Assembly (NCBI GenBank): GCA_964019425.1
Contig: OZ025801.1
Coordinates: 62,001-126,000 of the forward strand
Reading direction: 5' to 3'
Source of the DNA: Flectonema sp. DT1601
Lineage: Eukaryota
DNA length: 64,000 nucleotides
Shown piece by piece: positions 1 through 60,293 of the stretch. The position numbers and the translations under genes were made by a program. The notes beneath the pieces were generated by a model. That model was not told the DNA's origin. It worked only from the letters and a program-made list of their open reading frames with translations, and searched no databases. Position 1 is the stretch's first letter, and the number at the start of each line of letters is the position of its first letter.

Positions 1-245
1 TATTTCTTGGGAGTTTCATGGGGCAACCCACCAGGAAAAAATTTACAGAAAAGTTTTATTTAGCAGCTGGGGCTGGGTCTTAGCTTTAACGTTAACGCAG
101 GAGCGGCGAAAATTACACCTTTCGGGGAAGAAAGCCAAAAAAAAAAAAAATATATTAAATATTTTTACGTAAAAATAAGAAACACGGTAAGTCTTTGTAC
201 ATTTTCTTCTGCTTGGCAAACAGAGGTGCACGGACAATAAAAAAA

Positions 246-356
246 CCCCAAAGGAAGAAAATTCTTCCTAAGGGGTTAGCTAAATATTCCAAGCAAGCTC
301 GGATGTTGAGACTGTACCAATAAAGTACAGAAACTGTAGCTTTAGAATCGTTGGTT
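246..356 (-). ncRNA. SL RNA: Spliced-leader (mini-exon donor) RNA, first complete copy; exon 356-318, intron 317-~246
   Basis: Reverse strand reads AACCAACGATTCTAAAGCTACAGTTTCTGTACTTTATTG|GTACAG: a 39-nt exon with the euglenozoan CAGTTTCTGTACTTTATTG end and a GT donor. Then stem-loop CCGAGC-TT-GCTTGG, putative Sm site AATATTTAG, a 3' hairpin (CCCC..GGAAG/CTTCC..GGGG) and a T7 tract. Confidence 0.96.
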
Positions 357-463
357 AACCTTAAAAAGTAGTTACCCCAGGTGATTAGAAATTACGTGGC
401 TTTTAGAACTACCAGCCAGTACTAACAGAAATGCTTGCTTGCGGGTAGGGAAGTAAGGGAAAA

Positions 464-583
464 AGCCTGCAAGCACCCGGGGTTCCCACGTGATCACTCA
501 CCGCAGTACTAACCAGGCCTGCTGGTGCTTAACTTCCCAAATCGGGCGGGATGGGGTGCATTCACCAGAGTATGGCCGCAGGC
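464..583 (-). rRNA. 5S rRNA: 5S rRNA, first copy (repeated every ~603 bp)
   Basis: Reverse strand GCCTGCGGCCATACTCTGGTGAATGCACCCCATCCCGCCCGATTTGGGAAGTTAAGC...GGTTAGTACT...GGGAACCCCGGGTGCTTGCAGGCTT: 120 nt, paired ends, conserved 5S motifs, T-run terminator. Confidence 0.97.
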
Positions 584-3500
584 AATAGCAGATTTTTTTA
601 TTTTATTTCTTGGGAGTTTCATGGGGCAACCCACCAGGAAAAAATTTACAGAAAAGTTTTATTTAGCAGCTGGGGCTGGGTCTTAGCTTTAACGTTAACG
701 CAGGAGCGGCGAAAATTACACCTTTCGGGGAAGAAAGCCAAAAAAAAAAAAAATATATTAAATATTTTTACGTAAAAATAAGAAACACGGTAAGTCTTTG
801 TACATTTTCTTCTGCTTGGCAAACAGAGGTGCACGGACAATAAAAAAACCCCAAAGGAAGAAAATTCTTCCTAAGGGGTTAGCTAAATATTCCAAGCAAG
901 CTCGGATGTTGAGACTGTACCAATAAAGTACAGAAACTGTAGCTTTAGAATCGTTGGTTAACCTTAAAAAGTAGTTACCCCAGGTGATTAGAAATTACGT
1001 GGCTTTTAGAACTACCAGCCAGTACTAACAGAAATGCTTGCTTGCGGGTAGGGAAGTAAGGGAAAAAGCCTGCAAGCACCCGGGGTTCCCACGTGATCAC
1101 TCACCGCAGTACTAACCAGGCCTGCTGGTGCTTAACTTCCCAAATCGGGCGGGATGGGGTGCATTCACCAGAGTATGGCCGCAGGCAATAGCAGATTTTT
1201 TTATTTTATTTCTTGGGAGTTTCATGGGGCAACCCACCAGGAAAAAATTTACAGAAAAGTTTTATTTAGCAGCTGGGGCTGGGTCTTAGCTTTAACGTTA
1301 ACGCAGGAGCGGCGAAAATTACACCTTTCGGGGAAGAAAGCCAAAAAAAAAAAAATATATTAAATATTTTTACGTAAAAATAAGAAACACGGTAAGTCTT
1401 TGTACATTTTCTTCTGCTTGGCAAACAGAGGTGCACGGACAATAAAAAAACCCCAAAGGAAGAAAATTCTTCCTAAGGGGTTAGCTAAATATTCCAAGCA
1501 AGCTCGGATGTTGAGACTGTACCAATAAAGTACAGAAACTGTAGCTTTAGAATCGTTGGTTAACCTTAAAAAGTAGTTACCCCAGGTGATTAGAAATTAC
1601 GTGGCTTTTAGAACTACCAGCCAGTACTAACAGAAATGCTTGCTTGCGGGTAGGGAAGTAAGGGAAAAAGCCTGCAAGCACCCGGGGTTCCCACGTGATC
1701 ACTCACCGCAGTACTAACCAGGCCTGCTGGTGCTTAACTTCCCAAATCGGGCGGGATGGGGTGCATTCACCAGAGTATGGCCGCAGGCAATAGCAGATTT
1801 TTTTATTTTATTTCTTGGGAGTTTCATGGGGCAACCCACCAGGAAAAAATTTACAGAAAAGTTTTATTTAGCAGCTGGGCTGGGTCTTAGCTTTAACGTT
1901 AACGCAGGAGCGGCGAAAATTACACCTTTCGGGGAAGAAAGCCAAAAAAAAAAAAAATATATTAAATATTTTTACGTAAAAATAAGAAACACGGTAAGTC
2001 TTTGTACATTTTCTTCTGCTTGGCAAACAGAGGTGCACGGACAATAAAAAAACCCCAAAGGAAGAAAATTCTTCCTAAGGGGTTAGCTAAATATTCCAAG
2101 CAAGCTCGGATGTTGAGACTGTACCAATAAAGTACAGAAACTGTAGCTTTAGAATCGTTGGTTAACCTTAAAAAGTAGTTACCCCAGGTGATTAGAAATT
2201 ACGTGGCTTTTAGAACTACCAGCCAGTACTAACAGAAATGCTTGCTTGCGGGTAGGGAAGTAAGGGAAAAAGCCTGCAAGCACCCGGGGTTCCCACGTGA
2301 TCACTCACCGCAGTACTAACCAGGCCTGCTGGTGCTTAACTTCCCAAATCGGGCGGGATGGGGTGCATTCACCAGAGTATGGCCGCAGGCAATAGCAGAT
2401 TTTTTTATTTTATTTCTTGGGAGTTTCATGGGGCAACCCACCAGGAAAAAATTTACAGAAAAGTTTTATTTAGCAGCTGGGGCTGGGTCTTAGCTTTAAC
2501 GTTAACGCAGGAGCGGCGAAAATTACACCTTTCGGGGAAGAAAGCCAAAAAAAAAAAAAATATATTAAATATTTTTACGTAAAAATAAGAAACACGGTAA
2601 GTCTTTGTACATTTTCTTCTGCTTGGCAAACAGAGGTGCACGGACAATAAAAAAACCCCAAAGGAAGAAAATTCTTCCTAAGGGGTTAGCTAAATATTCC
2701 AAGCAAGCTCGCGGATGTTGAGACTGTACCAATAAAGTACAGAAACTGTAGCTTTAGAATCGTTGGTTAACCTTAAAAAGTAGTTACCCCAGGTGATTAG
2801 AAATTACGTGGCTTTTAGAACTACCAGCCAGTACTAACAGAAATGCTTGCTTGCGGGTAGGGAAGTAAGGGAAAAAGCCTGCAAGCACCCGGGGTTCCCA
2901 CGTGATCACTCACCGCAGTACTAACCAGGCCTGCTGGTGCTTAACTTCCCAAATCGGGCGGGATGGGGTGCATTCACCAGAGTATGGCCGCAGGCAATAG
3001 CAGATTTTTTTATTTTATTTCTTGGGAGTTTCATGGGGCAACCCACCAGGAAAAAATTTACAGAAAAGTTTTATTTAGCAGCTGGGGCTGGGTCTTAGCT
3101 TTAACGTTAACGCAGGAGCGGCGAAAATTACACCTTTCGGGGAAGAAAGCCAAAAAAAAAAAAAATATATTAAATATTTTTACGTAAAAATAAGAAACAC
3201 GGTAAGTCTTTGTACATTTTCTTCTGCTTGGCAAACAGAGGTGCACGGACAATAAAAAAACCCCAAAGGAAGAAAATTCTTCCTAAGGGGTTAGCTAAAT
3301 ATTCCAAGCAAGCTCGGATGTTGAGACTGTACCAATAAAGTACAGAAACTGTAGCTTTAGAATCGTTGGTTAACCTTAAAAAGTAGTTACCCCAGGTGAT
3401 TAGAAATTACGTGGCTTTTAGAACTACCAGCCAGTACTAACAGAAATGCTTGCTTGCGGGTAGGGAAGTAAGGGAAAAAGCCTGCAAGCACCCGGGGTTC

Positions 3501-6500
3501 CCACGTGATCACTCACCGCAGTACTAACCAGGCCTGCTGGTGCTTAACTTCCCAAATCGGGCGGGATGGGGTGCATTCACCAGAGTATGGCCGCAGGCAA
3601 TAGCAGATTTTTTTATTTTATTTCTTGGGAGTTTCATGGGGCAACCCACCAGGAAAAAATTTACAGAAAAGTTTTATTTAGCAGCTGGGGCTGGGTCTTA
3701 GCTTTAACGTTAACGCAGGAGCGGCGAAAATTACACCTTTCGGGGAAGAAAGCCAAAAAAAAAAAAAATATATTAAATATTTTTACGTAAAAATAAGAAA
3801 CACGGTAAGTCTTTGTACATTTTCTTCTGCTTGGCAAACAGAGGTGCACGGACAATAAAAAAACCCCAAAGGAAGAAAATTCTTCCTAAGGGGTTAGCTA
3901 AATATTCCAAGCAAGCTCGGATGTTGAGACTGTACCAATAAAGTACAGAAACTGTAGCTTTAGAATCGTTGGTTAACCTTAAAAAGTAGTTACCCCAGGT
4001 GATTAGAAATTACGTGGCTTTTAGAACTACCAGCCAGTACTAACAGAAATGCTTGCTTGCGGGTAGGGAAGTAAGGGAAAAAGCCTGCAAGCACCCGGGG
4101 TTCCCACGTGATCACTCACCGCAGTACTAACCAGGCCTGCTGGTGCTTAACTTCCCAAATCGGGCGGGATGGGGTGCATTCACCAGAGTATGGCCGCAGG
4201 CAATAGCAGATTTTTTTATTTTATTTCTTGGGAGTTTCATGGGGCAACCCACCAGGAAAAAATTTACAGAAAAGTTTTATTTAGCAGCTGGGGCTGGGTC
4301 TTAGCTTTAACGTTAACGCAGGAGCGGCGAAAATTACACCTTTCGGGGAAGAAAGCCAAAAAAAAAAAAAATATATTAAATATTTTTACGTAAAAATAAG
4401 AAACACGGTAAGTCTTTGTACATTTTCTTCTGCTTGGCAAACAGAGGTGCACGGACAATAAAAAAACCCCAAAGGAAGAAAATTCTTCCTAAGGGGTTAG
4501 CTAAATATTCCAAGCAAGCTCGGATGTTGAGACTGTACCAATAAAGTACAGAAACTGTAGCTTTAGAATCGTTGGTTAACCTTAAAAAGTAGTTACCCCA
4601 GGTGATTAGAAATTACGTGGCTTTTAGAACTACCAGCCAGTACTAACAGAAATGCTTGCTTGCGGGTAGAGGAAGTAAGGGAAAAAGCCTGCAAGCACCC
4701 GGGGTTCCCACGTGATCACTCACCGCAGTACTAACCAGGCCTGCTGGTGCTTAACTTCCCAAATCGGGCGGGATGGGGTGCATTCACCAGAGTATGGCCG
4801 CAGGCAATAGCAGATTTTTTTATTTTATTTCTTGGGAGTTTCATGGGGCAACCCACCAGGAAAAAATTTACAGAAAAGTTTTATTTAGCAGCTGGGGCTG
4901 GGTCTTAGCTTTAACGTTAACGCAGGAGCGGCGAAAATTACACCTTTCGGGGAAGAAAGCCAAAAAAAAAAAAAATATATTAAATATTTTTACGTAAAAA
5001 TAAGAAACACGGTAAGTCTTTGTACATTTTCTTCTGCTTGGCAAACAGAGGTGCACGGACAATAAAAAAACCCCAAAGGAAGAAAATTCTTCCTAAGGGG
5101 TTAGCTAAATATTCCAAGCAAGCTCGGATGTTGAGACTGTACCAATAAAGTACAGAAACTGTAGCTTTAGAATCGTTGGTTAACCTTAAAAAGTAGTTAC
5201 CCCAGGTGATTAGAAATTACGTGGCTTTTAGAACTACCAGCCAGTACTAACAGAAATGCTTGCTTGCGGGTAGGGAAGTAAGGGAAAAAGCCTGCAAGCA
5301 CCCGGGGTTCCCACGTGATCACTCACCGCAGTACTAACCAGGCCTGCTGGTGCTTAACTTCCCAAATCGGGCGGGATGGGGTGCATTCACCAGAGTATGG
5401 CCGCAGGCAATAGCAGATTTTTTTATTTTATTTCTTGGGAGTTTCATGGGGCAACCCACCAGGAAAAAATTTACAGAAAAGTTTTATTTAGCAGCTGGGG
5501 CTGGGTCTTAGCTTTAACGTTAACGCAGGAGCGGCGAAAATTACACCTTTCGGGGAAGAAAGCCAAAAAAAAAAAAAATATATTAAATATTTTTACGTAA
5601 AAATAAGAAACACGGTAAGTCTTTGTACATTTTCTTCTGCTTGGCAAACAGAGGTGCACGGACAATAAAAAAACCCCAAAGGAAGAAAATTCTTCCTAAG
5701 GGGTTAGCTAAATATTCCAAGCAAGCTCGGATGTTGAGACTGTACCAATAAAGTACAGAAACTGTAGCTTTAGAATCGTTGGTTAACCTTAAAAAGTAGT
5801 TACCCCAGGTGATTAGAAATTACGTGGCTTTTAGAACTACCAGCCAGTACTAACAGAAATGCTTGCTTGCGGGTAGGGAAGTAAGGGAAAAAGCCTGCAA
5901 GCACCCGGGGTTCCCACGTGATCACTCACCGCAGTACTAACCAGGCCTGCTGGTGCTTAACTTCCCAAATCGGGCGGGATGGGGTGCATTCACCAGAGTA
6001 TGGCCGCAGGCAATAGCAGATTTTTTTATTTTATTTCTTGGGAGTTTCATGGGGCAACCCACCAGGAAAAAATTTACAGAAAAGTTTTATTTAGCAGCTG
6101 GGGCTGGGTCTTAGCTTTAACGTTAACGCAGGAGCGGCGAAAATTACACCTTTCGGGGAAGAAAGCCAAAAAAAAAAAAAATATATTAAATATTTTTACG
6201 TAAAAATAAGAAACACGGTAAGTCTTTGTACATTTTCTTCTGCTTGGCAAACAGAGGTGCACGGACAATAAAAAAACCCCAAAGGAAGAAAATTCTTCCT
6301 AAGGGGTTAGCTAAATATTCCAAGCAAGCTCGGATGTTGAGACTGTACCAATAAAGTACAGAAACTGTAGCTTTAGAATCGTTGGTTAACCTTAAAAAGT
6401 AGTTACCCCAGGTGATTAGAAATTACGTGGCTTTTAGAACTACCAGCCAGTACTAACAGAAATGCTTGCTTGCGGGTAGGGAAGTAAGGGAAAAAGCCTG

Positions 6501-9500
6501 CAAGCACCCGGGGTTCCCACGTGATCACTCACCGCAGTACTAACCAGGCCTGCTGGTGCTTAACTTCCCAAATCGGGCGGGATGGGGTGCATTCACCAGA
6601 GTATGGCCGCAGGCAATAGCAGATTTTTTTATTTTATTTCTTGGGAGTTTCATGGGGCAACCCACCAGGAAAAAATTTACAGAAAAGTTTTATTTAGCAG
6701 CTGGGGCTGGGTCTTAGCTTTAACGTTAACGCAGGAGCGGCGAAAATTACACCTTTCGGGGAAGAAAGCCAAAAAAAAAAAAAATATATTAAATATTTTT
6801 ACGTAAAAATAAGAAACACGGTAAGTCTTTGTACATTTTCTTCTGCTTGGCAAACAGAGGTGCACGGACAATAAAAAAACCCCAAAGGAAGAAAATTCTT
6901 CCTAAGGGGTTAGCTAAATATTCCAAGCAAGCTCGGATGTTGAGACTGTACCAATAAAGTACAGAAACTGTAGCTTTAGAATCGTTGGTTAACCTTAAAA
7001 AGTAGTTACCCCAGGTGATTAGAAATTACGTGGCTTTTAGAACTACCAGCCAGTACTAACAGAAATGCTTGCTTGCGGGTAGGGAAGTAAGGGAAAAAGC
7101 CTGCAAGCACCCGGGGTTCCCACGTGATCACTCACCGCAGTACTAACCAGGCCTGCTGGTGCTTAACTTCCCAAATCGGGCGGGATGGGGTGCATTCACC
7201 AGAGTATGGCCGCAGGCAATAGCAGATTTTTTTATTTTATTTCTTGGGAGTTTCATGGGGCAACCCACCAGGAAAAAATTTACAGAAAAGTTTTATTTAG
7301 CAGCTGGGGCTGGGTCTGCTTTAACGTTAACGCAGGAGCGGCGAAAATTACACCTTTCGGGGAAGAAAGCCAAAAAAAAAAAAAATATATTAAATATTTT
7401 TACGTAAAAATAAGAAACACGGTAAGTCTTTGTACATTTTCTTCTGCTTGGCAAACAGAGGTGCACGGACAATAAAAAAACCCCAAAGGAAGAAAATTCT
7501 TCCTAAGGGGTTAGCTAAATATTCCAAGCAAGCTCGGATGTTGAGACTGTACCAATAAAGTACAGAAACTGTAGCTTTAGAATCGTTGGTTAACCTTAAA
7601 AAGTAGTTACCCCAGGTGATTAGAAATTACGTGGCTTTTAGAACTACCAGCCAGTACTAACAGAAATGCTTGCTTGCGGGTAGGGAAGTAAGGGAAAAAG
7701 CCTGCAAGCACCCGGGGTTCCCACGTGATCACTCACCGCAGTACTAACCAGGCCTGCTGGTGCTTAACTTCCCAAATCGGGCGGGATGGGGTGCATTCAC
7801 CAGAGTATGGCCGCAGGCAATAGCAGATTTTTTTATTTTATTTCTTGGGAGTTTCATGGGGCAACCCACCAGGAAAAAATTTACAGAAAAGTTTTATTTA
7901 GCAGCTGGGGCTGGGTCTTAGCTTTAACGTTAACGCAGGAGCGGCGAAAATTACACCTTTCGGGGAAGAAAGCCAAAAAAAAAAAAATATATATTAAATA
8001 TTTTTACGTAAAAATAAGAAACACGGTAAGTCTTTGTACATTTTCTTCTGCTTGGCAAACAGAGGTGCACGGACAATAAAAAAACCCCAAAGGAAGAAAA
8101 TTCTTCCTAAGGGGTTAGCTAAATATTCCAAGCAAGCTCGGATGTTGAGACTGTACCAATAAAGTACAGAAACTGTAGCTTTAGAATCGTTGGTTAACCT
8201 TAAAAAGTAGTTACCCCAGGTGATTAGAAATTACGTGGCTTTTAGAACTACCAGCCAGTACTAACAGAAATGCTTGCTTGCGGGTAGGGAAGTAAGGGAA
8301 AAAGCCTGCAAGCACCCGGGGTTCCCACGTGATCACTCACCGCAGTACTAACCAGGCCTGCTGGTGCTTAACTTCCCAAATCGGGCGGGATGGGGTGCAT
8401 TCACCAGAGTATGGCCGCAGGCAATAGCAGATTTTTTTATTTTATTTCTTGGGAGTTTCATGGGGCAACCCACCAGGAAAAAATTTACAGAAAAGTTTTA
8501 TTTAGCAGCTGGGGCTGGGTCTTAGCTTTAACGTTAACGCAGGAGCGGCGAAAATTACACCTTTCGGGGAAGAAAGCCAAAAAAAAAAAAAATATATTAA
8601 ATATTTTTACGTAAAAATAAGAAACACGGTAAGTCTTTGTACATTTTCTTCTGCTTGGCAAACAGAGGTGCACGGACAATAAAAAAACCCCAAAGGAAGA
8701 AAATTCTTCCTAAGGGGTTAGCTAAATATTCCAAGCAAGCTCGGATGTTGAGACTGTACCAATAAAGTACAGAAACTGTAGCTTTAGAATCGTTGGTTAA
8801 CCTTAAAAAGTAGTTACCCCAGGTGATTAGAAATTACGTGGCTTTTAGAACTACCAGCCAGTACTAACAGAAATGCTTGCTTGCGGGTAGGGAAGTAAGG
8901 GAAAAAGCCTGCAAGCACCCGGGGTTCCCACGTGATCACTCACCGCAGTACTAACCAGGCCTGCTGGTGCTTAACTTCCCAAATCGGGCGGGATGGGGTG
9001 CATTCACCAGAGTATGGCCGCAGGCAATAGCAGATTTTTTTATTTTATTTCTTGGGAGTTTCATGGGGCAACCCACCAGGAAAAAATTTACAGAAAAGTT
9101 TTATTTAGCAGCTGGGGCTGGGTCTTAGCTTTAACGTTAACGCAGGAGCGGCGAAAATTACACCTTTCGGGGAAGAAAGCCAAAAAAAAAAAAAATATAT
9201 TAAATATTTTTACGTAAAAATAAGAAACACGGTAAGTCTTTGTACATTTTCTTCTGCTTGGCAAACAGAGGTGCACGGACAATAAAAAAACCCCAAAGGA
9301 AGAAAATTCTTCCTAAGGGGTTAGCTAAATATTCCAAGCAAGCTCGGATGTTGAGACTGTACCAATAAAGTACAGAAACTGTAGCTTTAGAATCGTTGGT
9401 TAACCTTAAAAAGTAGTTACCCCAGGTGATTAGAAATTACGTGGCTTTTAGAACTACCAGCCAGTACTAACAGAAATGCTTGCTTGCGGGTAGGGAAGTA

Positions 9501-12500
9501 AGGGAAAAAGCCTGCAAGCACCCGGGGTTCCCACGTGATCACTCACCGCAGTACTAACCAGGCCTGCTGGTGCTTAACTTCCCAAATCGGGCGGGATGGG
9601 GTGCATTCACCAGAGTATGGCCGCAGGCAATAGCAGATTTTTTTATTTTATTTCTTGGGAGTTTCATGGGGCAACCCACCAGGAAAAAATTTACAGAAAA
9701 GTTTTATTTAGCAGCTGGGGCTGGGTCTTAGCTTTAACGTTAACGCAGGAGCGGCGAAAATTACACCTTTCGGGGAAGAAAGCCAAAAAAAAAAAAAATA
9801 TATTAAATATTTTTACGTAAAAATAAGAAACACGGTAAGTCTTTGTACATTTTCTTCTGCTTGGCAAACAGAGGTGCACGGACAATAAAAAAACCCCAAA
9901 GGAAGAAAATTCTTCCTAAGGGGTTAGCTAAATATTCCAAGCAAGCTCGGATGTTGAGACTGTACCAATAAAGTACAGAAACTGTAGCTTTAGAATCGTT
10001 GGTTAACCTTAAAAAGTAGTTACCCCAGGTGATTAGAAATTACGTGGCTTTTAGAACTACCAGCCAGTACTAACAGAAATGCTTGCTTGCGGGTAGGGAA
10101 GTAAGGGAAAAAGCCTGCAAGCACCCGGGGTTCCCACGTGATCACTCACCGCAGTACTAACCAGGCCTGCTGGTGCTTAACTTCCCAAATCGGGCGGGAT
10201 GGGGTGCATTCACCAGAGTATGGCCGCAGGCAATAGCAGATTTTTTTATTTTATTTCTTGGGAGTTTCATGGGGCAACCCACCAGGAAAAAATTTACAGA
10301 AAAGTTTTATTTAGCAGCTGGGGCTGGGTCTTAGCTTTAACGTTAACGCAGGAGCGGCGAAAATTACACCTTTCGGGGAAGAAAGCCAAAAAAAAAAAAA
10401 ATATATTAAATATTTTTACGTAAAAATAAGAAACACGGTAAGTCTTTGTACATTTTCTTCTGCTTGGCAAACAGAGGTGCACGGACAATAAAAAAACCCC
10501 AAAGGAAGAAAATTCTTCCTAAGGGGTTAGCTAAATATTCCAAGCAAGCTCGGATGTTGAGACTGTACCAATAAAGTACAGAAACTGTAGCTTTAGAATC
10601 GTTGGTTAACCTTAAAAAGTAGTTACCCCAGGTGATTAGAAATTACGTGGCTTTTAGAACTACCAGCCAGTACTAACAGAAATGCTTGCTTGCGGGTAGG
10701 GAAGTAAGGGAAAAAGCCTGCAAGCACCCGGGGTTCCCACGTGATCACTCACCGCAGTACTAACCAGGCCTGCTGGTGCTTAACTTCCCAAATCGGGCGG
10801 GATGGGGTGCATTCACCAGAGTATGGCCGCAGGCAATAGCAGATTTTTTTATTTTATTTCTTGGGAGTTTCATGGGGCAACCCACCAGGAAAAAATTTAC
10901 AGAAAAGTTTTATTTAGCAGCTGGGGCTGGGTCTTAGCTTTAACGTTAACGCAGGAGCGGCGAAAATTACACCTTTCGGGGAAGAAAGCCAAAAAAAAAA
11001 AAAATATATTAAATATTTTTACGTAAAAATAAGAAACACGGTAAGTCTTTGTACATTTTCTTCTGCTTGGCAAACAGAGGTGCACGGACAATAAAAAAAC
11101 CCCAAAGGAAGAAAATTCTTCCTAAGGGGTTAGCTAAATATTCCAAGCAAGCTCGGATGTTGAGACTGTACCAATAAAGTACAGAAACTGTAGCTTTAGA
11201 ATCGTTGGTTAACCTTAAAAAGTAGTTACCCCAGGTGATTAGAAATTACGTGGCTTTTAGAACTACCAGCCAGTACTAACAGAAATGCTTGCTTGCGGGT
11301 AGGGAAGTAAGGGAAAAAGCCTGCAAGCACCCGGGGTTCCCACGTGATCACTCACCGCAGTACTAACCAGGCCTGCTGGTGCTTAACTTCCCAAATCGGG
11401 CGGGATGGGGTGCATTCACCAGAGTATGGCCGCAGGCAATAGCAGATTTTTTTATTTTATTTCTTGGGAGTTTCATGGGGCAACCCACCAGGAAAAAATT
11501 TACAGAAAAGTTTTATTTAGCAGCTGGGGCTGGGTCTTAGCTTTAACGTTAACGCAGGAGCGGCGAAAATTACACCTTTCGGGGAAGAAAGCCAAAAAAA
11601 AAAAAAATATATTAAATATTTTTACGTAAAAATAAGAAACACGGTAAGTCTTTGTACATTTTCTTCTGCTTGGCAAACAGAGGTGCACGGACAATAAAAA
11701 AACCCCAAAGGAAGAAAATTCTTCCTAAGGGGTTAGCTAAATATTCCAAGCAAGCTCGGATGTTGAGACTGTACCAATAAAGTACAGAAACTGTAGCTTT
11801 AGAATCGTTGGTTAACCTTAAAAAGTAGTTACCCCAGGTGATTAGAAATTACGTGGCTTTTAGAACTACCAGCCAGTACTAACAGAAATGCTTGCTTGCG
11901 GGTAGGGAAGTAAGGGAAAAAGCCTGCAAGCACCCGGGGTTCCCACGTGATCACTCACCGCAGTACTAACCAGGCCTGCTGGTGCTTAACTTCCCAAATC
12001 GGGCGGGATGGGGTGCATTCACCAGAGTATGGCCGCAGGCAATAGCAGATTTTTTTATTTTATTTCTTGGGAGTTTCATGGGGCAACCCACCAGGAAAAA
12101 ATTTACAGAAAAGTTTTATTTAGCAGCTGGGGCTGGGTCTTAGCTTTAACGTTAACGCAGGAGCGGCGAAAATTACACCTTTCGGGGAAGAAAGCCAAAA
12201 AAAAAAAAAATATATTAAATATTTTTACGTAAAAATAAGAAACACGGTAAGTCTTTGTACATTTTCTTCTGCTTGGCAAACAGAGGTGCACGGACAATAA
12301 AAAAACCCCAAAGGAAGAAAATTCTTCCTAAGGGGTTAGCTAAATATTCCAAGCAAGCTCGGATGTTGAGACTGTACCAATAAAGTACAGAAACTGTAGC
12401 TTTAGAATCGTTGGTTAACCTTAAAAAGTAGTTACCCCAGGTGATTAGAAATTACGTGGCTTTTAGAACTACCAGCCAGTACTAACAGAAATGCTTGCTT

Positions 12501-14717
12501 GCGGGTAGGGAAGTAAGGGAAAAAGCCTGCAAGCACCCGGGGTTCCCACGTGATCACTCACCGCAGTACTAACCAGGCCTGCTGGTGCTTAACTTCCCAA
12601 ATCGGGCGGGATGGGGTGCATTCACCAGAGTATGGCCGCAGGCAATAGCAGATTTTTTTATTTTATTTCTTGGGAGTTTCATGGGGCAACCCACCAGGAA
12701 AAAATTTACAGAAAAGTTTTATTTAGCAGCTGGGGCTGGGTCTTAGCTTTAACGTTAACGCAGGAGCGGCGAAAATTACACCTTTCGGGGAAGAAAGCCA
12801 AAAAAAAAAAAAATATATTAAATATTTTTACGTAAAAATAAGAAACACGGTAAGTCTTTGTACATTTTCTTCTGCTTGGCAAACAGAGGTGCACGGACAA
12901 TAAAAAAACCCCAAAGGAAGAAAATTCTTCCTAAGGGGTTAGCTAAATATTCCAAGCAAGCTCGGATGTTGAGACTGTACCAATAAAGTACAGAAACTGT
13001 AGCTTTAGAATCGTTGGTTAACCTTAAAAAGTAGTTACCCCAGGTGATTAGAAATTACGTGGCTTTTAGAACTACCAGCCAGTACTAACAGAAATGCTTG
13101 CTTGCGGGTAGGGAAGTAAGGGAAAAAGCCTGCAAGCACCCGGGGTTCCCACGTGATCACTCACCGCAGTACTAACCAGGCCTGCTGGTGCTTAACTTCC
13201 CAAATCGGGCGGGATGGGGTGCATTCACCAGAGTATGGCCGCAGGCAATAGCAGATTTTTTTATTTTATTTCTTGGGAGTTTCATGGGGCAACCCACCAG
13301 GAAAAAATTTACAGAAAAGTTTTATTTAGCAGCTGGGGCTGGGTCTTAGCTTTAACGTTAACGCAGGAGCGGCGAAAATTACACCTTTCGGGGAAGAAAG
13401 CCAAAAAAAAAAAAAATATATTAAATATTTTTACGTAAAAATAAGAAACACGGTAAGTCTTTGTACATTTTCTTCTGCTTGGCAAACAGAGGTGCACGGA
13501 CAATAAAAAAACCCCAAAGGAAGAAAATTCTTCCTAAGGGGTTAGCTAAATATTCCAAGCAAGCTCGGATGTTGAGACTGTACCAATAAAGTACAGAAAC
13601 TGTAGCTTTAGAATCGTTGGTTAACCTTAAAAAGTAGTTACCCCAGGTGATTAGAAATTACGTGGCTTTTAGAACTACCAGCCAGTACTAACAGAAATGC
13701 TTGCTTGCGGGTAGGGAAGTAAGGGAAAAAGCCTGCAAGCACCCGGGGTTCCCACGTGATCACTCACCGCAGTACTAACCAGGCCTGCTGGTGCTTAACT
13801 TCCCAAATCGGGCGGGATGGGGTGCATTCACCAGAGTATGGCCGCAGGCAATAGCAGATTTTTTTATTTTATTTCTTGGGAGTTTCATGGGGCAACCCAC
13901 CAGGAAAAAATTTACAGAAAAGTTTTATTTAGCAGCTGGGGCTGGGTCTTAGCTTTAACGTTAACGCAGGAGCGGCGAAAATTACACCTTTCGGGGAAGA
14001 AAGCCAAAAAAAAAAAAAATATATTAAATATTTTTACGTAAAAATAAGAAACACGGTAAGTCTTTGTACATTTTCTTCTGCTTGGCAAACAGAGGTGCAC
14101 GGACAATAAAAAAACCCCAAAGGAAGAAAATTCTTCCTAAGGGGTTAGCTAAATATTCCAAGCAAGCTCGGATGTTGAGACTGTACCAATAAAGTACAGA
14201 AACTGTAGCTTTAGAATCGTTGGTTAACCTTAAAAAGTAGTTACCCCAGGTGATTAGAAATTACGTGGCTTTTAGAACTACCAGCCAGTACTAACAGAAA
14301 TGCTTGCTTGCGGGTAGGGAAGTAAGGGAAAAAGCCTGCAAGCACCCGGGGTTCCCACGTGATCACTCACCGCAGTACTAACCAGGCCTGCTGGTGCTTA
14401 ACTTCCCAAATCGGGCGGGATGGGGTGCATTCACCAGAGTATGGCCGCAGGCAATAGCAGATTTTTTTATTTTATTTCTTGGGAGTTTCATGGGGCAACC
14501 CACCAGGAAAAAATTTACAGAAAAGTTTTATTTAGCAGCTGGGGCTGGGTCTTAGCTTTAACGTTAACGCAGGAGCGGCGAAAATTACACCTTTCGGGGA
14601 AGAAAGCCAAAAAAAAAAAAAATATATTAAATATTTTTACGTAAAAATAAGAAACACGGTAAGTCTTTGTACATTTTCTTCTGCTTGGCAAACAGAGGTG
14701 CACGGACAATAAAAAAA

Positions 14718-14828
14718 CCCCAAAGGAAGAAAATTCTTCCTAAGGGGTTAGCTAAATATTCCAAGCAAGCTCGGATGTTGAGACTGTACCAATAAAGTAC
14801 AGAAACTGTAGCTTTAGAATCGTTGGTT
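14718..14828 (-). ncRNA. SL RNA: SL RNA, last copy in array
   Basis: Same sequence as 246-356. Confidence 0.95.
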
Positions 14829-14935
14829 AACCTTAAAAAGTAGTTACCCCAGGTGATTAGAAATTACGTGGCTTTTAGAACTACCAGCCAGTACTAACAG
14901 AAATGCTTGCTTGCGGGTAGGGAAGTAAGGGAAAA

Positions 14936-15055
14936 AGCCTGCAAGCACCCGGGGTTCCCACGTGATCACTCACCGCAGTACTAACCAGGCCTGCTGGTGC
15001 TTAACTTCCCAAATCGGGCGGGATGGGGTGCATTCACCAGAGTATGGCCGCAGGC
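14936..15055 (-). rRNA. 5S rRNA: 5S rRNA, last copy in array
   Basis: Same sequence as 464-583. Confidence 0.96.
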
Positions 15056-15563
15056 AATAGCAGATTTTTTTATTTTATTTCTTGGGAGTTTCATGGGGCA
15101 ACCCACCAGGAAAAAATTTACAGAAAAGTTTTATTTAGCAGCTGGGGCTGGGTCTTAGCTTTAACGTTAACGCAGGAGCGGCGAAAATTACACCTTTCGG
15201 GGGCCTCCGCCCCCGAAAGCTGGAAATTTTCGTAAAGGGTATGGCCTTCCTTCCCACCACCTACGTATTCACCACAACTTGGATGCTGTTCTGCACTTGC
15301 CCGCAAGGTCTGCATTGCTGAATGAGGGAATAGGGACAAAGGAAGGAGAATTTACTTGAAAACCTGCACAAGAACTTGGGAATTGTTCCCAGGTTGACTA
15401 CAGAATTGTTTATCGAAAGGCAGTGAATGTTGAAGATGTGCAGAAGGAAAGAAGTGAGAGCAGAGAAGAAACAAAAGGTAGAACCCTGAATGTCAAAATT
15501 CTATTTACAAAAATTTCGTGTCATTTAGTGTCGTTACTGACACGTTCATTCTCCAATTATTTT

Positions 15564-35687: not shown

Positions 35688-35689
35688 AT

Positions 35690-36374: not shown

Positions 36375-36544
36375 AGCGAGTCTGTCTGTATCGAAAAGAA
36401 CAAAAACAAAGAGTCTGGAAGCACATATGAGTGTAACTCAATTTAAAAAAAAAGTTATAAAAGTTTTATAAAAAAAGTTAAATAAAAAAAGTTTTTTTTA
36501 TTTATTAAATAAAAAAAAAGTTTCTTTTGGCGGGACCACACAAA

Positions 36545-49260: not shown

Positions 49261-49527
49261 AACCAACGATTCTAAAGCTAGTTTCTGTTAAATATATTTC
49301 AGTAATTTGCAGCATCCCAAAGCACCGTTTCACCAAGCATCGAATTTTTCGATGCGTTCCCATAATGTAAATCCAACATTATGATTATTAGTTTCTTAAT
49401 ACCAATTCTTAATTCACACCCATTTATCAGATTTCGAACCCCGTTTCGCGCATACCTTTTTAACGAATTTTAAATTGATGCCTCGCTCCAAGGGTGGGGC
49501 GGGGTTATTGTTTGGGAATCTGGAGAA

Positions 49528-49977
49528 TTGGAAATCCTGGGAGGGGCATGGCCATATGGTGAGAGTCGCCACATTAACATTCTTGAAGCTGATGCTCTGG
49601 CCAGGACTCTGGATGGAATCAGCCATGCTGACCACCTGGACATCTGGGTAGACAATACCTCGGTATGTGGAGCATTCAGGAAAAGAATGTGTGTAAGATC
49701 GCATGATTTGAACTTTTTTGTTATAAAAGCAGTGGAGAGAATTTTGTTTTTTAAGTGTTCTTTTTCTTTAAAATGGGTGAGTACGAAGTACAACCCAGCA
49801 GATATTCCATCTAGGGAAGCAATATCTTCGGCTACCAGGCAGAAGGTAGAACTTGCGCTGGGGGAATTCTTTAACTCGCGGCGGGGTGGTGGAGCCGGCA
49901 ACCCAACGAACAGAACTGGGACCGGCAGCGGCGTCCAGCCCATCCATGGCGGACCCACCACAACCCCAACGCGGTGA
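49528..49977 (+). pseudogene. RNase H remnant of DIRS/VIPER type
   Basis: GAW...HINILEADAL...IWVDNTSV...LKWVSTKYNPADIPSR. Confidence 0.85.
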
Positions 49978-50420
49978 CCTACTTGCATGGGTAGTCCACC
50001 AAGTTGACCATTGTTTAGTTTATTGATATCACCGAGTGATTTGTTTCTCATGTTTCCTTTCTTCCAAACAGGTGCCCAAAGGATGCAAGATAATTACTGT
50101 TAAATATATTTCAGTAATTTGCAGCATCCCAAAGCACCGTTTCACCAAGCATCGAATTTTTCGATGCGTTCCCATAATGTAAATCCAACATTATGATTAT
50201 TAGTTTCTTAATACCAATTCTTAATTCACAGAATTCGATAGAGTGGGAAGTAACGGACTGGGAGCTTTTGGCTCCTGCCCTATTCCCGATGTAAACTTTC
50301 TTTTTATTTTTTTTTTTTTAACAGGCCCAGAGGGCGACAATGACTGTTGCTGACCAAGGAATAATATTCAAATGAATTTTCGTTTCAAAGAAACGAACAG
50401 AATTAAGAGAGAGGCAGAGA

Positions 50421-50453
<33 letters not shown>

Positions 50454-50689
50454 AAAAAAAAAAAAAAAATATGAAGAGGAAATAATCAAACATGAAAAAA
50501 ATAAAAAAAAAAAAATAAAATATAAATAAAAAACGTTGTATGAAAAAGGAAAAAAAAGAAGAAAAAAAAAAAAAAAGACCAGAAAAGGAAAGAGAAAATG
50601 AAAAGGTATAATATTATTGTGGGGATATGAGGATAGCAGGGAGATGCTCTTTTTTTTTTTTTTTTTTTTATTTATTATTTAAAAAAAAG

Positions 50690-50784
50690 GAAACAATCAG
50701 TTTAGCGTCTCGATCGGGACGGAAAATAGAAATTTAATCGACATAGTCGATCGATAGAAAAAAAAACAATGATAACATTGTTTA

Positions 50785-50819
<35 letters not shown>

Positions 50820-53800
50820 CTTTTAATTATTTTAAAGAAAAAACAATCAGTTTAGCGTCTTGACCAGGACGGAAAATAGAAAGTGATCGACATAGTCGAT
50901 CGATAAAAAAACAATGATAACATTGTTTATTCTTTTTTTTTTTTTTTTAAATTCTTTTTATTTATTTTTTAAAGAAAAAAAAAACGGAAAATAAAAATTA
51001 GTCGACAAAGTCGAACGATAAAAAAAAAACAATGATAACATTGTTTATTCTTTTTTTTTTTTGTTTTTTTTTTGTATTCTTTTTTATTAATTTTGAAAAA
51101 AAACAATCAGTTTAGCGTCTTGACCAGGACGGAAAATAGAAAGTAATCGACATAGTCGATCGATAAAAAAACAATGATAACATTGTTTAATCTTTTTTTT
51201 TTTTTTAAATTCTTTTTATTTATTTTTTAAAGAAAAAAAACGGAAAATAGAAATTAGTCGACAAAGTCGAACGGTAAAAAAACAATGATAACATTGTTTA
51301 TTCTTTTTTTTTATTTTTTTTATATTTTTTTTAATTAATTTTGAAAAAAAAAACAATCAGTTTAGCGTCTTGACCAGGACGGAAAATAGAAAGCGATCGA
51401 CATAGTCGATCGATAAGAAAACAATGATAATATTGTTTATTCTTTTTTTTTTATTTTAAATTCTTTTTATTTATTTTTTAAAGAAAAAAAAAACGGAAAA
51501 TAGAAATTAGTCGACAAAGTCGAACGATAAAAAAAAAACAATGATAACATTGTTTATTCTTTTTTTTGTATTTTTTTTATATTCTTTTTTATTAATTTTG
51601 AAAAAAAAATAAAAAACAATCAGTTTAGCGTCTTGACCAGGACGGAAAATAGAAAGTAATCGACATAGTCGATCGATAAAAAAAACAATGATAACATTGT
51701 TTATTCTTTTTTTTTTTTTTTTTTTTAAATTCTTTTTATTTATTTTTTAAAAAGAAAAAAAAAACGGAAAATAGAAATTAGTCAACAAAGTCGAACGATT
51801 AAAAAAAAAACAATGATAACATTGTTTATTCTTTTTTTTTTATTTTTTTTAAATTCTTTTTTATTAATTTTGAAAAAAAAACAATCAGTTTAGCGTCTTG
51901 ACCAGGACGGAAAATAGAAAGTGATCGACATTGCTCTTCAGGGAGGGCCTTAGCCAAAAGCTAACAGTCCAAATCTCACCTGGAAATTCAACTCAGTCCT
52001 TGTCAGTTTTGGCATCAAACTTGTAATGGTTTAATCATTACAGGTTATTTACTGAAATATTTGTTCTAAAAGTTGCTAAGTATTTCTCACTTAGAAATTT
52101 TTTATTTTTTTATTTTCAGCTTAATTAGCTACAAATTGTTTCTACTAAGTGTTTCTCACTTAGATTTTTTTTTTTGCTTTTCAGCTCCTTAAAAGCTGCT
52201 AAGTGTTTCTGCTAAGTGTTTCTCACTTAGAATTTTATTGTTATGTTCGTTTTCTATCCCTTCTCCTATCCCTTTTGTTCAAAATAAGCGGGAGGAAATT
52301 CTCTCATTCACGCTAAGATGCACTCTGAACTTTGATTTTTTGATCTGAGTGTGAGGGAATGACCTGTTAGTGCATTGGGCATAGGCTGGGCTGCAGTTTA
52401 GATGTCTTAGGTGTTAATAGGGGGTTCCTCTTAGCATTTTTCTTTGTTCCCACCTTATGATTTTCTTGAAGAAAAAAAATAGAAGTCATAATGGTGCTTC
52501 CCTCTGGAAGGGTTGTAAGCCATGGTGTCCAACTAGATTAAAGGACAAGTCTGGGATAATCCCTGCCAGAGGGGCGAGTATTCTACCATGGTTGAAATAC
52601 TCTGGCAACTGATCTTCAATTTTATGTTGTTTGTTAGCTGCTGGTGTAATTAAATCATGTGTTGATACTTGCATTTGTTTATTTGTTATCTTTTACTACA
52701 ATAACGCTTGCCTATATCTTTTCTTTTTATTCCCTATCTGTTCTGATCTGTTACTTCATTTGTCTTGTTTAACTTCAGTTATATGCATTTTACTTTTTAT
52801 TGTTTCCCATCTACTTTTTATTTTCTATTAGTTCTGGTCAGAAACTCCTGGGCAGCAAGAAGGAAAGTAGTTAAGTACTTCTGGGTGTTTGGCATCACCC
52901 CCCATAGTGAGCAAGTACAACAGGTAGCATTGGTAGTCTGTTGATCCTGAGTGATCCCAGCTACAGTTTTGTTTTTCTTTCTTTTTTTTAGAAGAAGATC
53001 AGGACATCCAAGCACTGCTGGATAGTTGCTGAATGCAGGGCCTGCCTGTGGCATTATAATAACAGGCTAAGTCATTTGTAGTTCATAGTTTACCTTTGAT
53101 TTTATAACTTCACACAGGGTACTATGAACGATGAGAGATCCAGTGGGATCACTCAGGGTCTAGTAGAGACCACCAATGTTGTGCGTTGATAGGCAAGGTG
53201 ACCAACCTTGACATTCTTTCTTTTCTCTCCTGTTGTGACAAACACAAAATACACACACAGCTTACAGTGTGTTCTTTGTGTATGTTTTCTTCAGGTGTGA
53301 GTAGTTTTTTTGTTCTTGCTCTTCAGGGAGGGCCTTAGCCAAAAGCTAACAGTCCAAATCTCACCTGGAAATTCAACTCCGTCGATCGATAAAAAAACAA
53401 TGATAACATTGTTTATTCTTTTTTTTTATTTTAAATTCTTTTTATTTATTTTTTAAAGAAAAAAAAAGGAAAATAGAAATTAGTCGACAAAGTCGAACGA
53501 TGAAAAAAAACAATGATAACATTGTTTATTCTTTTTTTTATTTTTTTTTTTTATTCTTTTTTATTAATTTTGAAAAAAAAAAACAATCAGTTTAGCGTCT
53601 TGACCAGGACGGAAAATAGAAAGTAATCGACATAGTCGATCGATAAGAAAACAATGATAACATTGTTTATTCTTTTTTTTTTTATTTTAAATTCTTTTTA
53701 TTTATTTTTTAAAGAAAAAAACTGAAAATAGAAATTAGTCGACAAAGTCGAACGATAAAAAAAACAATGATAACATTGTTTATTCTTTTTTTATTTTTTT

Positions 53801-54018
53801 TTATATTCTTTTTTATTAATTTTGAAAAAAAAAAAACAATCAGTTTAGCGTCTTGACCAGGACGGAGAATAGAAAGTAATCGACATAGTCGATCGATAAA
53901 AAAAACAATGATAACATTGTTTATTCTTTTTTTTTTATTTTAAAATCTTTTTATTTATTTTTTAAAGAAAAAAACTGAAAATAGAAATTAGTCGACAAAG
54001 TCGAACGATAAAAAAAAA
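50690..54018. repeat. AT-rich dimeric satellite (~240-255-bp period) with internal palindromes; interrupted at 51931-53380
   Basis: Recurring ACAATCAGTTTAGCGTCTTGACCAGGACGGAAAATAG, ATCGACATAGTCGAT, AAACAATGATAACATTGTTT; variable homopolymers. Confidence 0.92.
51931..53379. mobile_element. 1385-bp non-coding unit plus 64-bp terminal direct repeat, no TSD
   Basis: Identical 64-mers at 51931-51994 and 53316-53379; interrupts the satellite motif GATCGACA(TA)GTCGATCG. Confidence 0.85.
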
Positions 54019-54111
54019 AGTTTATTGATATCACCGAGTGATTTGTTTCTCATGTTTCCTTTCTTCCAAACAGGTGCCCAAAGGATGCAAGATAATTACT
54101 GTACTTTATTG

Positions 54112-54702
54112 TTTTTTCCCATCCCATTCAGTGGCGTAAATTGCGCGGCTTCGTCAAGAAACCAAGCGGATTTTCACTCCTTTTACAAAAAAAATCGGCG
54201 GCCGCAAGTGTACGCGTCAGTGCGTGACTTGCGCTTCTTGCGTCTTCGCAAGGAAAAAGAGAGATTAAGAGTAGGAGTGTAGGTCGAAGTTGAATTGCAG
54301 TTTAGGCCCTGTTTACTTTCTCCTTTCCCCTCCCCCAGTTTTTTCCCATCCCATTCAGTGGCGTAAATTGCGCGGCTTCGTCAAGAAACCAAGCGGATTT
54401 TCACTCCTTTTACAAAAAAAATCGGCGGCCGCAAGTGTACGCGTCAGTGCGTGACTTGCGCTTCTTGCGTCTTCGCAAGGAAAAAGAGAGATTAAGAGTA
54501 GGAGTGTAGGTCGAAGTTGAATTGCAGTTTAGGCCCTGTTTACTTTCTCCTTTCCCCTCCCCCAGTTTTTTCCCATCCCATTCAGTGGCGTAAATTGCGC
54601 GGCTTCGTCAAGAAACCAAGCGGATTTTCACTCCTTTTACAAAAAAAATCGGCGGCCGCAAGTGTACGCGTCAGTGCGTGACTTGCGCTTCTTGCGTCTT
54701 CG
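54112..54702 (+). repeat. 227-bp tandem repeat (2.6 copies: 54112, 54339, 54566); complete units end in polypyrimidine tract + CAG
   Basis: Exact repeats; unit end TTTACTTTCTCCTTTCCCCTCCCCCAG. Confidence 0.95.
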
Positions 54703-54719
54703 AAGTCTTCGAAGTCTTC

Positions 54720-60114: not shown

Positions 60115-60261
60115 GATTTTTCGCGTTTTTCCTTCAGGAAACTGAAGGACTAAAAAGACACAGAAATGGACTCAGTGATCATTCCCTGAGTAAACTGAGA
60201 GAATAATATTCAAATGAATTTTCGTTTCAAAGAAACGAACAGAATTAAGAGAGAGGCAGAG

Positions 60262-60293
<32 letters not shown>

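What the first reader, a model, noticed from the sequence alone, without database searches (positions are those of the whole stretch)
49261..54111. Split-direct-repeat (tyrosine-recombinase-type) retroelement integrated inside a spliced-leader exon at a shared CTGT core
Seen: the SL is split into AACCAACGATTCTAAAGCTAGTTTCTGT (49261-49288) and ACTTTATTG (54103-54111). The insert has A1..B1A2..B2 repeats and a DIRS-type RNase H. Its internal B1/A2 circle junction (ATTA-CTGT-TAAA) carries the same CTGT as the SL target (GTTT-CTGT-ACTT). Known: Ngaro/PAT/VIPER elements have split direct repeats and integrate circles by tyrosine recombinase; the SL-specific elements I know of (CRE/SLACS/CZAR) are non-LTR. 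Inference: possibly an SL-targeting YR retrotransposon family. None of the 25 array units here is interrupted.
Basis: partly seen in the sequence, partly recalled or inferred. Interest (0 to 1): 0.85.

Follow-up and report, generated by a model that had tools for sequence, protein, structure and literature searches.

The report
Recombinase retrotransposon lodged in spliced leader
A broken copy of a VIPER-like retrotransposon, whose close relatives encode a tyrosine recombinase, splits a diplonemid spliced-leader exon, and a related element meets the leader at the same spot in an independent sample, so this lineage likely favours the leader as its landing site, a habit so far described only for unrelated LINE-type elements.

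Summary
The 39-nt spliced leader (SL) of this diplonemid-type genome is split at nt 27-30 (CTGT) by a 4.8-kb insert with A1-RNase H-B1/A2...B2 repeats and no target duplication. The RNase H is 64-73% identical to multicopy RT/RNase H ORFs whose N-termini encode a tyrosine recombinase (YR) in the +1 frame, the VIPER/TATE layout. Two corrections. (1) The target is not an SL RNA gene but a retro-copied trans-spliced RNA: the SL has no promoter or intron, lacks 2 nt, and replaces the pyrimidine-CAG acceptor of a 227-bp repeat. (2) The copy is a deletion derivative, and 3.8 kb of unrelated repeats replace the A2/B2 junction. New evidence: in an unrelated public run (X2), one contig joins SL nt 1-26, probably with 4-5 nt of SL-gene upstream DNA, to the start of a sister element. 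That is a second, independent insertion at the same site. Against strict targeting: 25 of 25 array units are intact, two of three runs show no junction, and no right junction or master copy was found. SL preference is about 68% likely. No such YR element was found in print. New variant of a known kind.

The parts
49261..49288 (+). SL exon nt 1-30 (nt 21-22 missing), ending in the CTGT core; left junction. Joined at nt 1 to the poly-A of repeat C, with no SL-gene upstream DNA
49285..49476 (+). A1 repeat. At least 134 nt are shared with A2. Probably about 190 nt: a contig of run X1 starts exactly at 49285 and matches to 49476
49477..49977 (+). RNase H remnant, beginning at the first catalytic Asp (DAS motif); gag, YR and RT are deleted at 49476/49477 (inferred)
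50017..50100 (+). B1 repeat, minimal extent. Contigs of X1 (49938-50100) and X2/X3 (49894-50098) suggest it may be 160-205 nt and overlap the ORF end
50081..50129 (+). B1/A2 junction, the inferred circle junction (attP-like): inverted arms AATTACTG / CAGTAATT around a 12-nt spacer, CTGT at 50097-50100
   Evidence: sequence directly
50097..50230 (+). A2 repeat, cut off by repeat C
50231..54018 (.). 3.8 kb of local repeats between A2 and B2: repeat C with poly-A, a 253-263-bp satellite, and a copy of the 45.6-48.1 kb segment. No long ORF; it replaces the ends of A2 and B2
54019..54102 (+). B2 repeat (5'-truncated), ending in CTGT; right junction
54103..54111 (+). SL exon nt 31-39
54112..54702 (+). 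227-bp tandem repeat, 2.6 copies. Units 2 and 3 are preceded by a pyrimidine tract plus CAG; in unit 1 the SL 3' end stands in that place, a trans-splice junction fixed in DNA
49045..49262 (+). Repeat C, a dispersed poly-A-tailed repeat upstream of the SL; further copies at 50230-50443, 59406-59539 and 60201-60287
1..15202 (-). SL RNA + 5S rRNA tandem array (603-bp unit, 25 SL exons, all uninterrupted): reference for the SL and the presumed main target

Best explanation
This is a non-autonomous, internally deleted VIPER-like tyrosine-recombinase retrotransposon sitting in a spliced-leader exon at nt 27-30, and its lineage likely prefers that site in the leader. Shown: split direct repeats, shared CTGT core, no target duplication, YR-encoding close relatives, and a second SL junction by a sister element. 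Inferred from the DIRS-order model: the element RNA is reverse transcribed, the A and B repeats regenerate a circle whose B/A junction is the recombination site, and YR supplied in trans recombines that junction with the target. Inferred here: YR binds the inverted arms AATTACTG/CAGTAATT, and SL nt 22-29 (AGTTTCTG, 6 of 8 alike) mimics the left arm. That would make every SL copy, gene or retro-copy, a preferred and largely harmless landing site. In this window the target was a cDNA copy of a trans-spliced RNA of the 227-bp repeat. The internal deletion and the 3.8-kb replacement are decay of the copy; their order relative to the insertion is not known.
For: Structure and core. Family: RNase H 64-73% identical to 6 of 6 hits, five of them 881-1140-aa RT/RNase H ORFs, in clusters of 3-28 members. 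The N-termini of P0001-P0005 score 199-232 against a Diplonema papillatum YR core in the +1 frame, versus 27-36 in the +2 frame and at most 48 in 15 shuffles each. That YR region's nearest named Atlas clusters are phage-integrase types at 0.95-0.96. Metagenome contig L001 shows YR overlapping RT/RNase H, then 103-bp direct repeats 324 bp apart. Independent junction: run X2 has one contig with a loose end of 255 letters or more at 14803, which is SL nt 26 (table 7). Its reverse complement aligns to the A start at 22 of 25 columns; 0 of 20,000 shuffles reach that score and no other place in the window does. Depth arithmetic on table 2 fits a match of 14803 to 14832/14833, i.e. with 4-5 nt of SL-gene upstream DNA, at depth about 3.7 against about 44 for the SL. 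X1 contigs start at 49285 and end at 50100, exactly on the two CTGT copies. The window RNase H groups with P0001 (FastTree support 0.83); 11 of 15 listed members of that cluster share a contig length with another member, against 0 of 12, 2 of 15, 0 of 9 and 5 of 15 in clusters 2-5, as expected for insertion in an array.
Against: 25 of 25 SL genes in the window are uninterrupted, as is a second SL relic at 35663-35690. Only 1 of 3 runs shows an SL junction; X3, the same sample as X2, does not list it (one loose-end row was hidden), and X1 has a contig through the SL without one. No right junction (B joined to SL nt 31-39) was seen in any run. The X2 junction reads TTG where the SL has CTG and is offset by 1 nt, so the 4-nt core is not conserved in the sister element. 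The X2/X3 contig over B ends at 50098, two letters short of the core's end (depth 2, ambiguous). The X2 record was not among the rows printed in table 8, so its extent is my arithmetic. Arm-like CTGT sites are common (38 in the 48.8 kb outside the array), so a mild sequence preference could hit an SL now and then. No master copy sharing A and B was obtained. The clustering of P0001 copies may reflect tandem self-insertion or a different assembly.
Confidence: 0.68

Rival explanations
1. Same element class, but with only a short sequence preference (about AWTTWCTG-T). The SL happens to match, and both SL insertions are occasional hits among many scattered copies.
For: 439 CTGT sites, 38 of them arm-like, in 48.8 kb outside the array. 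Related families are dispersed over many large contigs (clusters 2 and 4). With the 2-nt deletion the window's SL relic matches the B end at 11 of 14 nt, against 8 of 14 for the canonical SL (sequence directly). All 25 array units are free. The window case was selected because it sits in an SL.
Against: The X2 junction was not selected that way and falls within nt 26-30 of a canonical SL. Scaling the window's site density to a 280-Mb genome with 110 SL genes (D. papillatum figures, PMC10161547) gives roughly 1 SL hit per 2,000 insertions for arm-like sites and per 20,000 for plain CTGT (my estimate). A hit in a shallow run then needs hundreds of copies or luck.
Confidence: 0.24
2. The element recombined with SL-capped cDNA before integration, or uses SL-bearing RNA during its replication. 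The SL junctions would then reflect RNA/cDNA-level capture rather than targeting of chromosomal SL copies.
For: The window's target is itself a reverse-transcribed trans-spliced RNA that starts exactly at SL nt 1.
Against: The X2 junction appears to include 4-5 nt upstream of SL nt 1, which no SL RNA or mRNA contains (inferred from depth arithmetic).
Confidence: 0.05
3. Assembly artefact or ectopic recombination joined unrelated repeats and produced the split SL by accident.
For: The region is a mosaic of near-identical repeats, and no public contig spans the locus.
Against: Both SL halves are in register, with no base lost or doubled beyond the core. The element ends coincide with contig ends in X1. 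An independent sample has the same kind of left junction.
Confidence: 0.03

Closest known systems
VIPER and TATE (VIPER-like YR retrotransposons of kinetoplastids; Ribeiro et al. 2019, PMC6681497; PMC12278014)
   Same: A1 at the 5' end, B1-A2-B2 at the 3' end. Gag-like ORF, then overlapping YR and RT/RNase H ORFs (in relatives). No target-site duplication. Repeat sizes of the same order (T. cruzi VIPER A 173, B 219 bp). RT/RNase H 30-35% identical to T. theileri protein P0167, which matches a copy on the paper's VIPER sheet by scaffold and domain offset (my inference). TATE is already site-specific, in the telomeric hexamer.
   Different: Host is diplonemid-type. The target is the SL exon, not telomeric repeats (TATE) or retroelement-rich regions (VIPER, PMC5814959). 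The relatives form a separate clade from P0167 (support 0.98). This copy has lost gag, YR and RT.
CRE clade: SLACS, CZAR, CRE1/2 (non-LTR, SL-specific; PMC5814959, PMC12278014)
   Same: Insertion inside the SL exon of a euglenozoan at a fixed position.
   Different: They are LINEs with RT and a restriction-like endonuclease, a poly-A tail and target-site duplications, inserting between SL nt 11 and 12. Here: split direct repeats, RNase H, YR lineage, nt 26-30, no duplication. Convergence on one target, not kinship.
DIRS1-like, Ngaro and PAT elements (order DIRS; PMC3266345)
   Same: Integration by recombination between a short circle-junction sequence and an identical genomic sequence, without duplication. 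Split direct repeats in Ngaro and PAT.
   Different: DIRS1-like elements have inverted termini, an internal complementary region and a methyltransferase. In Ngaro the YR lies downstream of RT/RNase H (recalled), whereas here RNase H runs straight into B1.
Other target-specific elements: Dada (snRNA, tRNA, 5S genes), CryptonV (microsatellites), R2 (PMC8869645); NeSL of nematodes (recalled)
   Same: Strategy of inserting in a conserved multicopy sequence.
   Different: Different enzymes (DDE transposase, DNA-only YR element, LINE endonuclease). The passages read attribute SL-exon targeting to non-LTR elements only.

Membership tests
VIPER-like YR retrotransposons | Split direct repeats A1 ... 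B1 A2 B2 | tested here: met
   A 130/130 and B 84/84 identical, in this order; A2 and B2 are truncated and separated by 3.8 kb of foreign repeats
VIPER-like YR retrotransposons | YR ORF upstream of and overlapping RT/RNase H, RNase H last before B1 | tested here: met
   Met in the five closest full-length relatives and in L001; RNase H abuts B1 in the window. The copy itself lacks YR
VIPER-like YR retrotransposons | Gag-like first ORF | tested here: inconclusive
   P0098 (cluster of P0003) and D. papillatum gene models share an N-terminal region upstream of YR (E 3e-12); its gag identity was not tested
VIPER-like YR retrotransposons | No target-site duplication; short core shared with the circle junction | tested here: met
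   Removing the insert with one CTGT restores the SL
VIPER-like YR retrotransposons | RT/RNase H in the VIPER-like clade | tested here: inconclusive
   30-35% identity over about 500 aa to P0167, a probable T. theileri VIPER; only Pfam hit of the window RNase H is hepadnaviral DNA_pol_viral_C, E 0.046, below cut-off, in line with PMC6681497. No labelled TATE, Ngaro or PAT sequence was in the tree, so VIPER versus TATE versus a third group is open
VIPER-like YR retrotransposons | An autonomous master sharing this A and B | not testable with these tools
   No genome held; no further A/B copy in the window; best protein relative 73% identical
CRE/SLACS/CZAR | Non-LTR RT with restriction-like endonuclease, poly-A tail | tested here: not met
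   The insert encodes an RNase H of the YR-element type and ends in a direct repeat
CRE/SLACS/CZAR | Insertion between SL nt 11 and 12 with target-site duplication | tested here: not met
   Junction at nt 27-30, no duplication; reference position from PMC5814959
DIRS1-like | Inverted terminal repeats with internal complementary region; methyltransferase | tested here: not met
   Termini are direct repeats with only short sub-terminal inverted arms; no methyltransferase hit in P0001-P0006
Ngaro | YR downstream of RT/RNase H (recalled) | tested here: not met
   RNase H frame ends at 49977, at most 40 nt before B1; YR is upstream in relatives
SL-specific element (claimed property) | Most copies at one SL position | tested here: inconclusive
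   2 of 2 junctions whose flank is known are in the SL at nt 26-30 (window; X2), the first of them selected for that; 25 of 25 array units free

The most novel reading that the evidence does not exclude
Diplonemids carry a clade of tyrosine-recombinase retrotransposons that use the spliced-leader exon as their attachment site. The recombinase reads SL nt 22-30 as one arm plus core, and inserts into SL RNA genes and into retro-copied mRNA 5' ends alike. It would be the first recombinase-based SL specialist, convergent with the CRE/SLACS LINEs, and a compact eukaryotic integrase with defined att sites.
Probability: 0.6. Interest if true: 0.8.

Novelty: new variant of a known kind. Interest (0 to 1): 0.68.

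Why it matters
Target choice by DIRS-order retrotransposons is poorly known; the main Mobile DNA study of VIPER and TATE has no occurrence of 'target' or 'circular' in its main text. This locus gives a left junction, a right junction, an internal circle junction with inverted arms, and the empty target. The circle-integration model and the arm/core rule therefore become directly testable. If SL preference holds, two unrelated retroelement classes converged on one 39-nt exon at different positions. D. papillatum can be transformed (recalled), so an SL-directed recombinase could become a safe-harbour integration tool for diplonemids.

Tried and rejected
No DNA was obtained for the unnamed full-length relatives P0001-P0006, so their flanks are unknown. 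The metagenome scan gave 30 loci at 22-41% identity, none with an SL at an element end. The viral-contig scans gave no relative (0 of 33 candidate stretches) and no exact A-start match. No match in plasmids. SL-pattern scans of viral and prokaryote contigs found intact SLs only, with no RT/RNase H nearby. No RNA holder was listed. Pfam did not recognise the YR at E 0.5 in D. papillatum gene models or at E 0.01 in L001, and the PDB sequence search found nothing; the YR call rests on motifs, the frame test and the Atlas. Peptide motifs were not found in the readable supplements of PMC6681497; its five .fas alignment files could not be read. 'TcC31.12', the NCBI label of relative P0156, is in no paper held. 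Earlier-findings look-ups returned nothing. Rejected: a trans-spliced element transcript (it would carry the whole SL at its 5' end, not two halves around it); a CRE/SLACS insertion; an interrupted SL gene (no promoter, no intron). A head-to-tail dimer of an 812-bp unit was considered; it describes the same junctions, but A1-ORF-B1-A2-B2 is the known single-element layout and L001 shows it.
Full report
Setting. The first 15.2 kb of the window is a tandem array of a 603-bp unit holding a 5S rRNA gene (25 Rfam hits) and a 39-nt SL exon followed by a GT intron. All 25 exons plus 6 intron bases are identical. An SL gene with a 39-bp exon in a tandem unit with 5S rRNA is described for Diplonema papillatum (PMC10161547, passages), and the named relatives of the element are mostly D. 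papillatum proteins. The host is therefore taken to be a diplonemid (inference). No whole genome was held.

Observation. SL nt 1-30 lie at 49261-49288, with nt 21-22 missing, and nt 31-39 at 54103-54111. Between them: A1, an RNase H frame (49474-49977), B1, A2, 3.8 kb of other repeats, and B2. A1 and A2 agree at 130 of 130 nt, B1 and B2 at 84 of 84. CTGT (SL nt 27-30) stands at both outer junctions and at the B1/A2 junction. Nothing else is doubled. The 9-mer behind B2 has a chance of about 7e-6 at that place. The B1/A2 junction is an inverted repeat, AATTACTG / 12 nt / CAGTAATT, with GGATGC/GCATCC outside it. SL nt 22-29 match the left arm at 6 of 8. The window's target has no recognisable right arm.

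The target is a retro-copy. Upstream of SL nt 1 is the poly-A of a dispersed repeat (C), not the SL promoter. Downstream of nt 39 is a 227-bp tandem repeat, not the intron. Units 2 and 3 of that repeat are preceded by a pyrimidine tract ending in CAG; in unit 1 the SL stands exactly there. This is what trans-splicing followed by reverse transcription and integration would leave (inference).

The element. The RNase H has only a sub-threshold Pfam hit, to the hepadnaviral polymerase C-terminus (E 0.046). Ribeiro et al. report that VIPER-like RNase H groups with hepadnaviruses (PMC6681497, passages). All 6 hits of a search among longer proteins (2,460 candidates) are 64-73% identical; five are RT/RNase H ORFs of 881-1140 aa, and their clusters hold 3-28 members. 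Their low-complexity N-termini were tested for an overlapping gene by scoring the residues possible in each other frame against the YR core of D. papillatum gene model P0060. Scores were 199-232 in the +1 frame, 27-36 in +2, 31-39 over the RT region, and at most 48 in 15 shuffles each; the motifs WKxAxRW and SxKRGA are each compatible at one place, 95 residues apart in all five. Residues 290-590 of P0060 have phage-integrase clusters as nearest named neighbours in the ESM Atlas (0.95-0.96; the family is on 27-100% of members). Pfam and the PDB search did not see it. Metagenome contig L001 shows the same order on DNA, with 103-bp direct repeats after RNase H. This is the layout given for VIPER and TATE (PMC12278014, passages; PMC6681497, Background, part 3 of the text and passages). 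In a FastTree of 36 stored proteins chosen by hand from the hits plus the window RNase H, the latter groups with P0001 (0.83) in a clade with P0002, P0004 and P0005 (1.0). That clade lies in a larger one with D. papillatum proteins (0.98), apart from T. theileri P0167. P0167 is probably one of the paper's VIPER copies: scaffold 4, ORF of 837 aa with RT-like domain at 377-489, which fits P0167 at an offset of 89 residues (inference). No labelled TATE was available. The window copy jumps from A1 into the first catalytic Asp of RNase H; a contig of run X1 follows A1 to 49476 and then has three unaligned letters. It is a deletion derivative.

Other copies. Three public runs from two studies hold parts of the element. 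Laid on 49000-50420, X1 gave one contig starting exactly at 49285 and one ending exactly at 50100, the two CTGT copies. X2 and X3 gave a contig ending at 50098. Depths are 2-3, so these ends may also be coverage limits, and no contig bridges a junction. Laid on one array unit, 14 of 15 loose ends were listed. One, in X2, lies at 14803, SL nt 26, with 255 or more unlike letters. Read on the SL strand it gives TTG, then 11 nt matching the A start at 9, then the CAGTAATT arm: 22 of 25 aligned columns, 0 of 20,000 shuffles, and no window match other than A1 and A2. The record was among the hidden rows of table 8. Solving the binned depths gives a match ending at 14832 or 14833 and depth about 3.7, against about 44 for the SL path; X3's bins balance without such a record (and my arithmetic). 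So it likely includes 4-5 nt upstream of the exon and is an insertion in a real SL gene. It differs from the window case in flank, SL allele and element sequence, hence an independent event by a sister family. X1 and X3 list no such end, and no right junction was seen.

How strong is that? Outside the array the window has 439 CTGT sites, 38 of them arm-like. Scaled to D. papillatum's 280 Mb and 110 SL genes, about 1 in 2,000 to 1 in 20,000 untargeted insertions would hit an SL gene (my estimate). With a few hundred YR copies (281 D. papillatum proteins in the orthogroup labelled TATE, supplement row), one hit by chance has a probability of about 0.01-0.15. The clustering of P0001-cluster copies points the same way but is indirect: 11 of 15 listed members share a contig length, median 46 kb, against 0 of 12 and about 396 kb for cluster 2 (15 of 28 members listed). 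Against: 25 of 25 units free, one intact relic at 35.7 kb, the TTG/CTG difference and 1-nt offset in X2, and no master copy. I put SL preference at 0.68 and the element class at about 0.93.

Mechanism. By the DIRS-order model, a circular intermediate recombines through a short junction sequence with an identical genomic sequence and leaves no duplication (PMC3266345, passages). Here the B/A junction would be that site, with the crossover within SL nt 26-30, YR bound to the inverted arms, and SL nt 22-29 acting as the left arm. A 12-nt spacer is longer than the 6-8 nt usual for tyrosine recombinases (recalled), and the target has one arm only, so recognition details are open. The 3.8 kb between A2 and B2 consist of repeats found nearby and replace the ends of both; I read them as later rearrangement but cannot date them.

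Prior art. SL-specific elements in print are non-LTR: SLACS and CZAR insert between nt 11 and 12 (PMC5814959, passages; PMC12278014). Kojima lists SL exons among the targets of non-LTR elements and microsatellites for CryptonV (PMC8869645, passages). TATE inserts in telomeric hexamers. The D. papillatum paper names SLACS- and TATE-like ORFs and defers a rigorous TE analysis. Full-text searches found no report of a YR element in the SL: (1 paper; 10; 2; 11; 21; 7), judged from listings, abstract starts and the passages named. Subscription papers and Repbase were not searched. The D. papillatum supplements searched gave no occurrence of 'SL RNA', so its repeat and structural-RNA sections were probably not among them and may bear on this claim. 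PMC13393146 and PMC8061765 were read as passages only, for the side finding.

Verdict. A real feature: a decayed VIPER-like retrotransposon in an SL exon, with one independent junction supporting SL preference. New variant of a known kind; interest 0.68.

Noticed in passing
L032, L034, L038, L076, L082/L083, L107-L109 (one 237,777-bp IMG/VR contig); L103; L118, L120-L122 (one 45,484-bp contig of a MAG): AT-rich contigs, two of them from the viral collection, carry whole or nearly whole diplonemid SL exons in cis in front of genes. In the two viral contigs 10 of 10 SL copies found lie 18-19 nt behind AAAA(A/T)TGA, the Mimiviridae early-promoter motif (recalled; the motif also appears in papers listed). 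In the MAG contig 3 of 5 do, and the other 2 have a near motif. Neighbouring genes include Bro-N, topoisomerase II, Ulp1 protease and polynucleotide kinase. This suggests giant viruses that transcribe the host leader themselves instead of trans-splicing. Two paper searches and passages of two papers showed no description. Possibly more interesting than the finding itself; virus identity and host were not tested.
   Followed up: partly
window 35663-35690, minus strand: Second SL relic (about nt 14-39, 2 nt missing), followed by a short leader and ATG and preceded by an RNase H ORF (35832-36437, minus; Pfam E 4e-10). Another retro-copied trans-spliced RNA; its CTGT is unoccupied.
   Followed up: partly
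window 36509-43597, plus strand: Apparently intact LINE with a 1066-aa ORF1 and a 1295-aa endonuclease-RT-RNase H ORF2 (ingi/L1Tc-like domain set), a candidate source of RT for the SL retro-copies.
   Followed up: partly
window 43907-43989 and 44124-44206: Two tRNA genes (Rfam 58 bits) about 300 bp behind the LINE; by eye tRNA-Tyr with a short intron. ARAGORN in bacterial mode found none.
   Followed up: no
window 1-15202: The SL/5S unit has no U2 snRNA hit, unlike the SL-5S-U2 unit of D. papillatum. L119, a contig in a bacterial MAG, holds another SL+5S unit with the identical 39-nt exon.
   Followed up: partly
window 54696-55735: A 9-bp unit repeated about 113 times without a mismatch, open in five of six frames, directly after the 227-bp tandem.
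   Followed up: no
window 56629-58038, minus strand: MULE transposase ORF, 469 aa (Pfam E 9e-9).
   Followed up: no
window 15561-15832 and 48356-48720: Scattered 28S rRNA fragments, as reported in large numbers for D. papillatum.
   Followed up: no
window 45652-48076 and 51931-53379: One roughly 1.4-kb segment present several times in both orientations at 92-99% identity. The copy inside the element is bounded by 68-bp direct repeats.
   Followed up: no
proteins P0007-P0285: VIPER-like RT/RNase H proteins are abundant outside trypanosomatids: 287 representatives at E up to 1e-30, with named members from D. papillatum and Papus ankaliazontas, whereas PMC6681497 found few hits outside Kinetoplastida.
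   Followed up: partly
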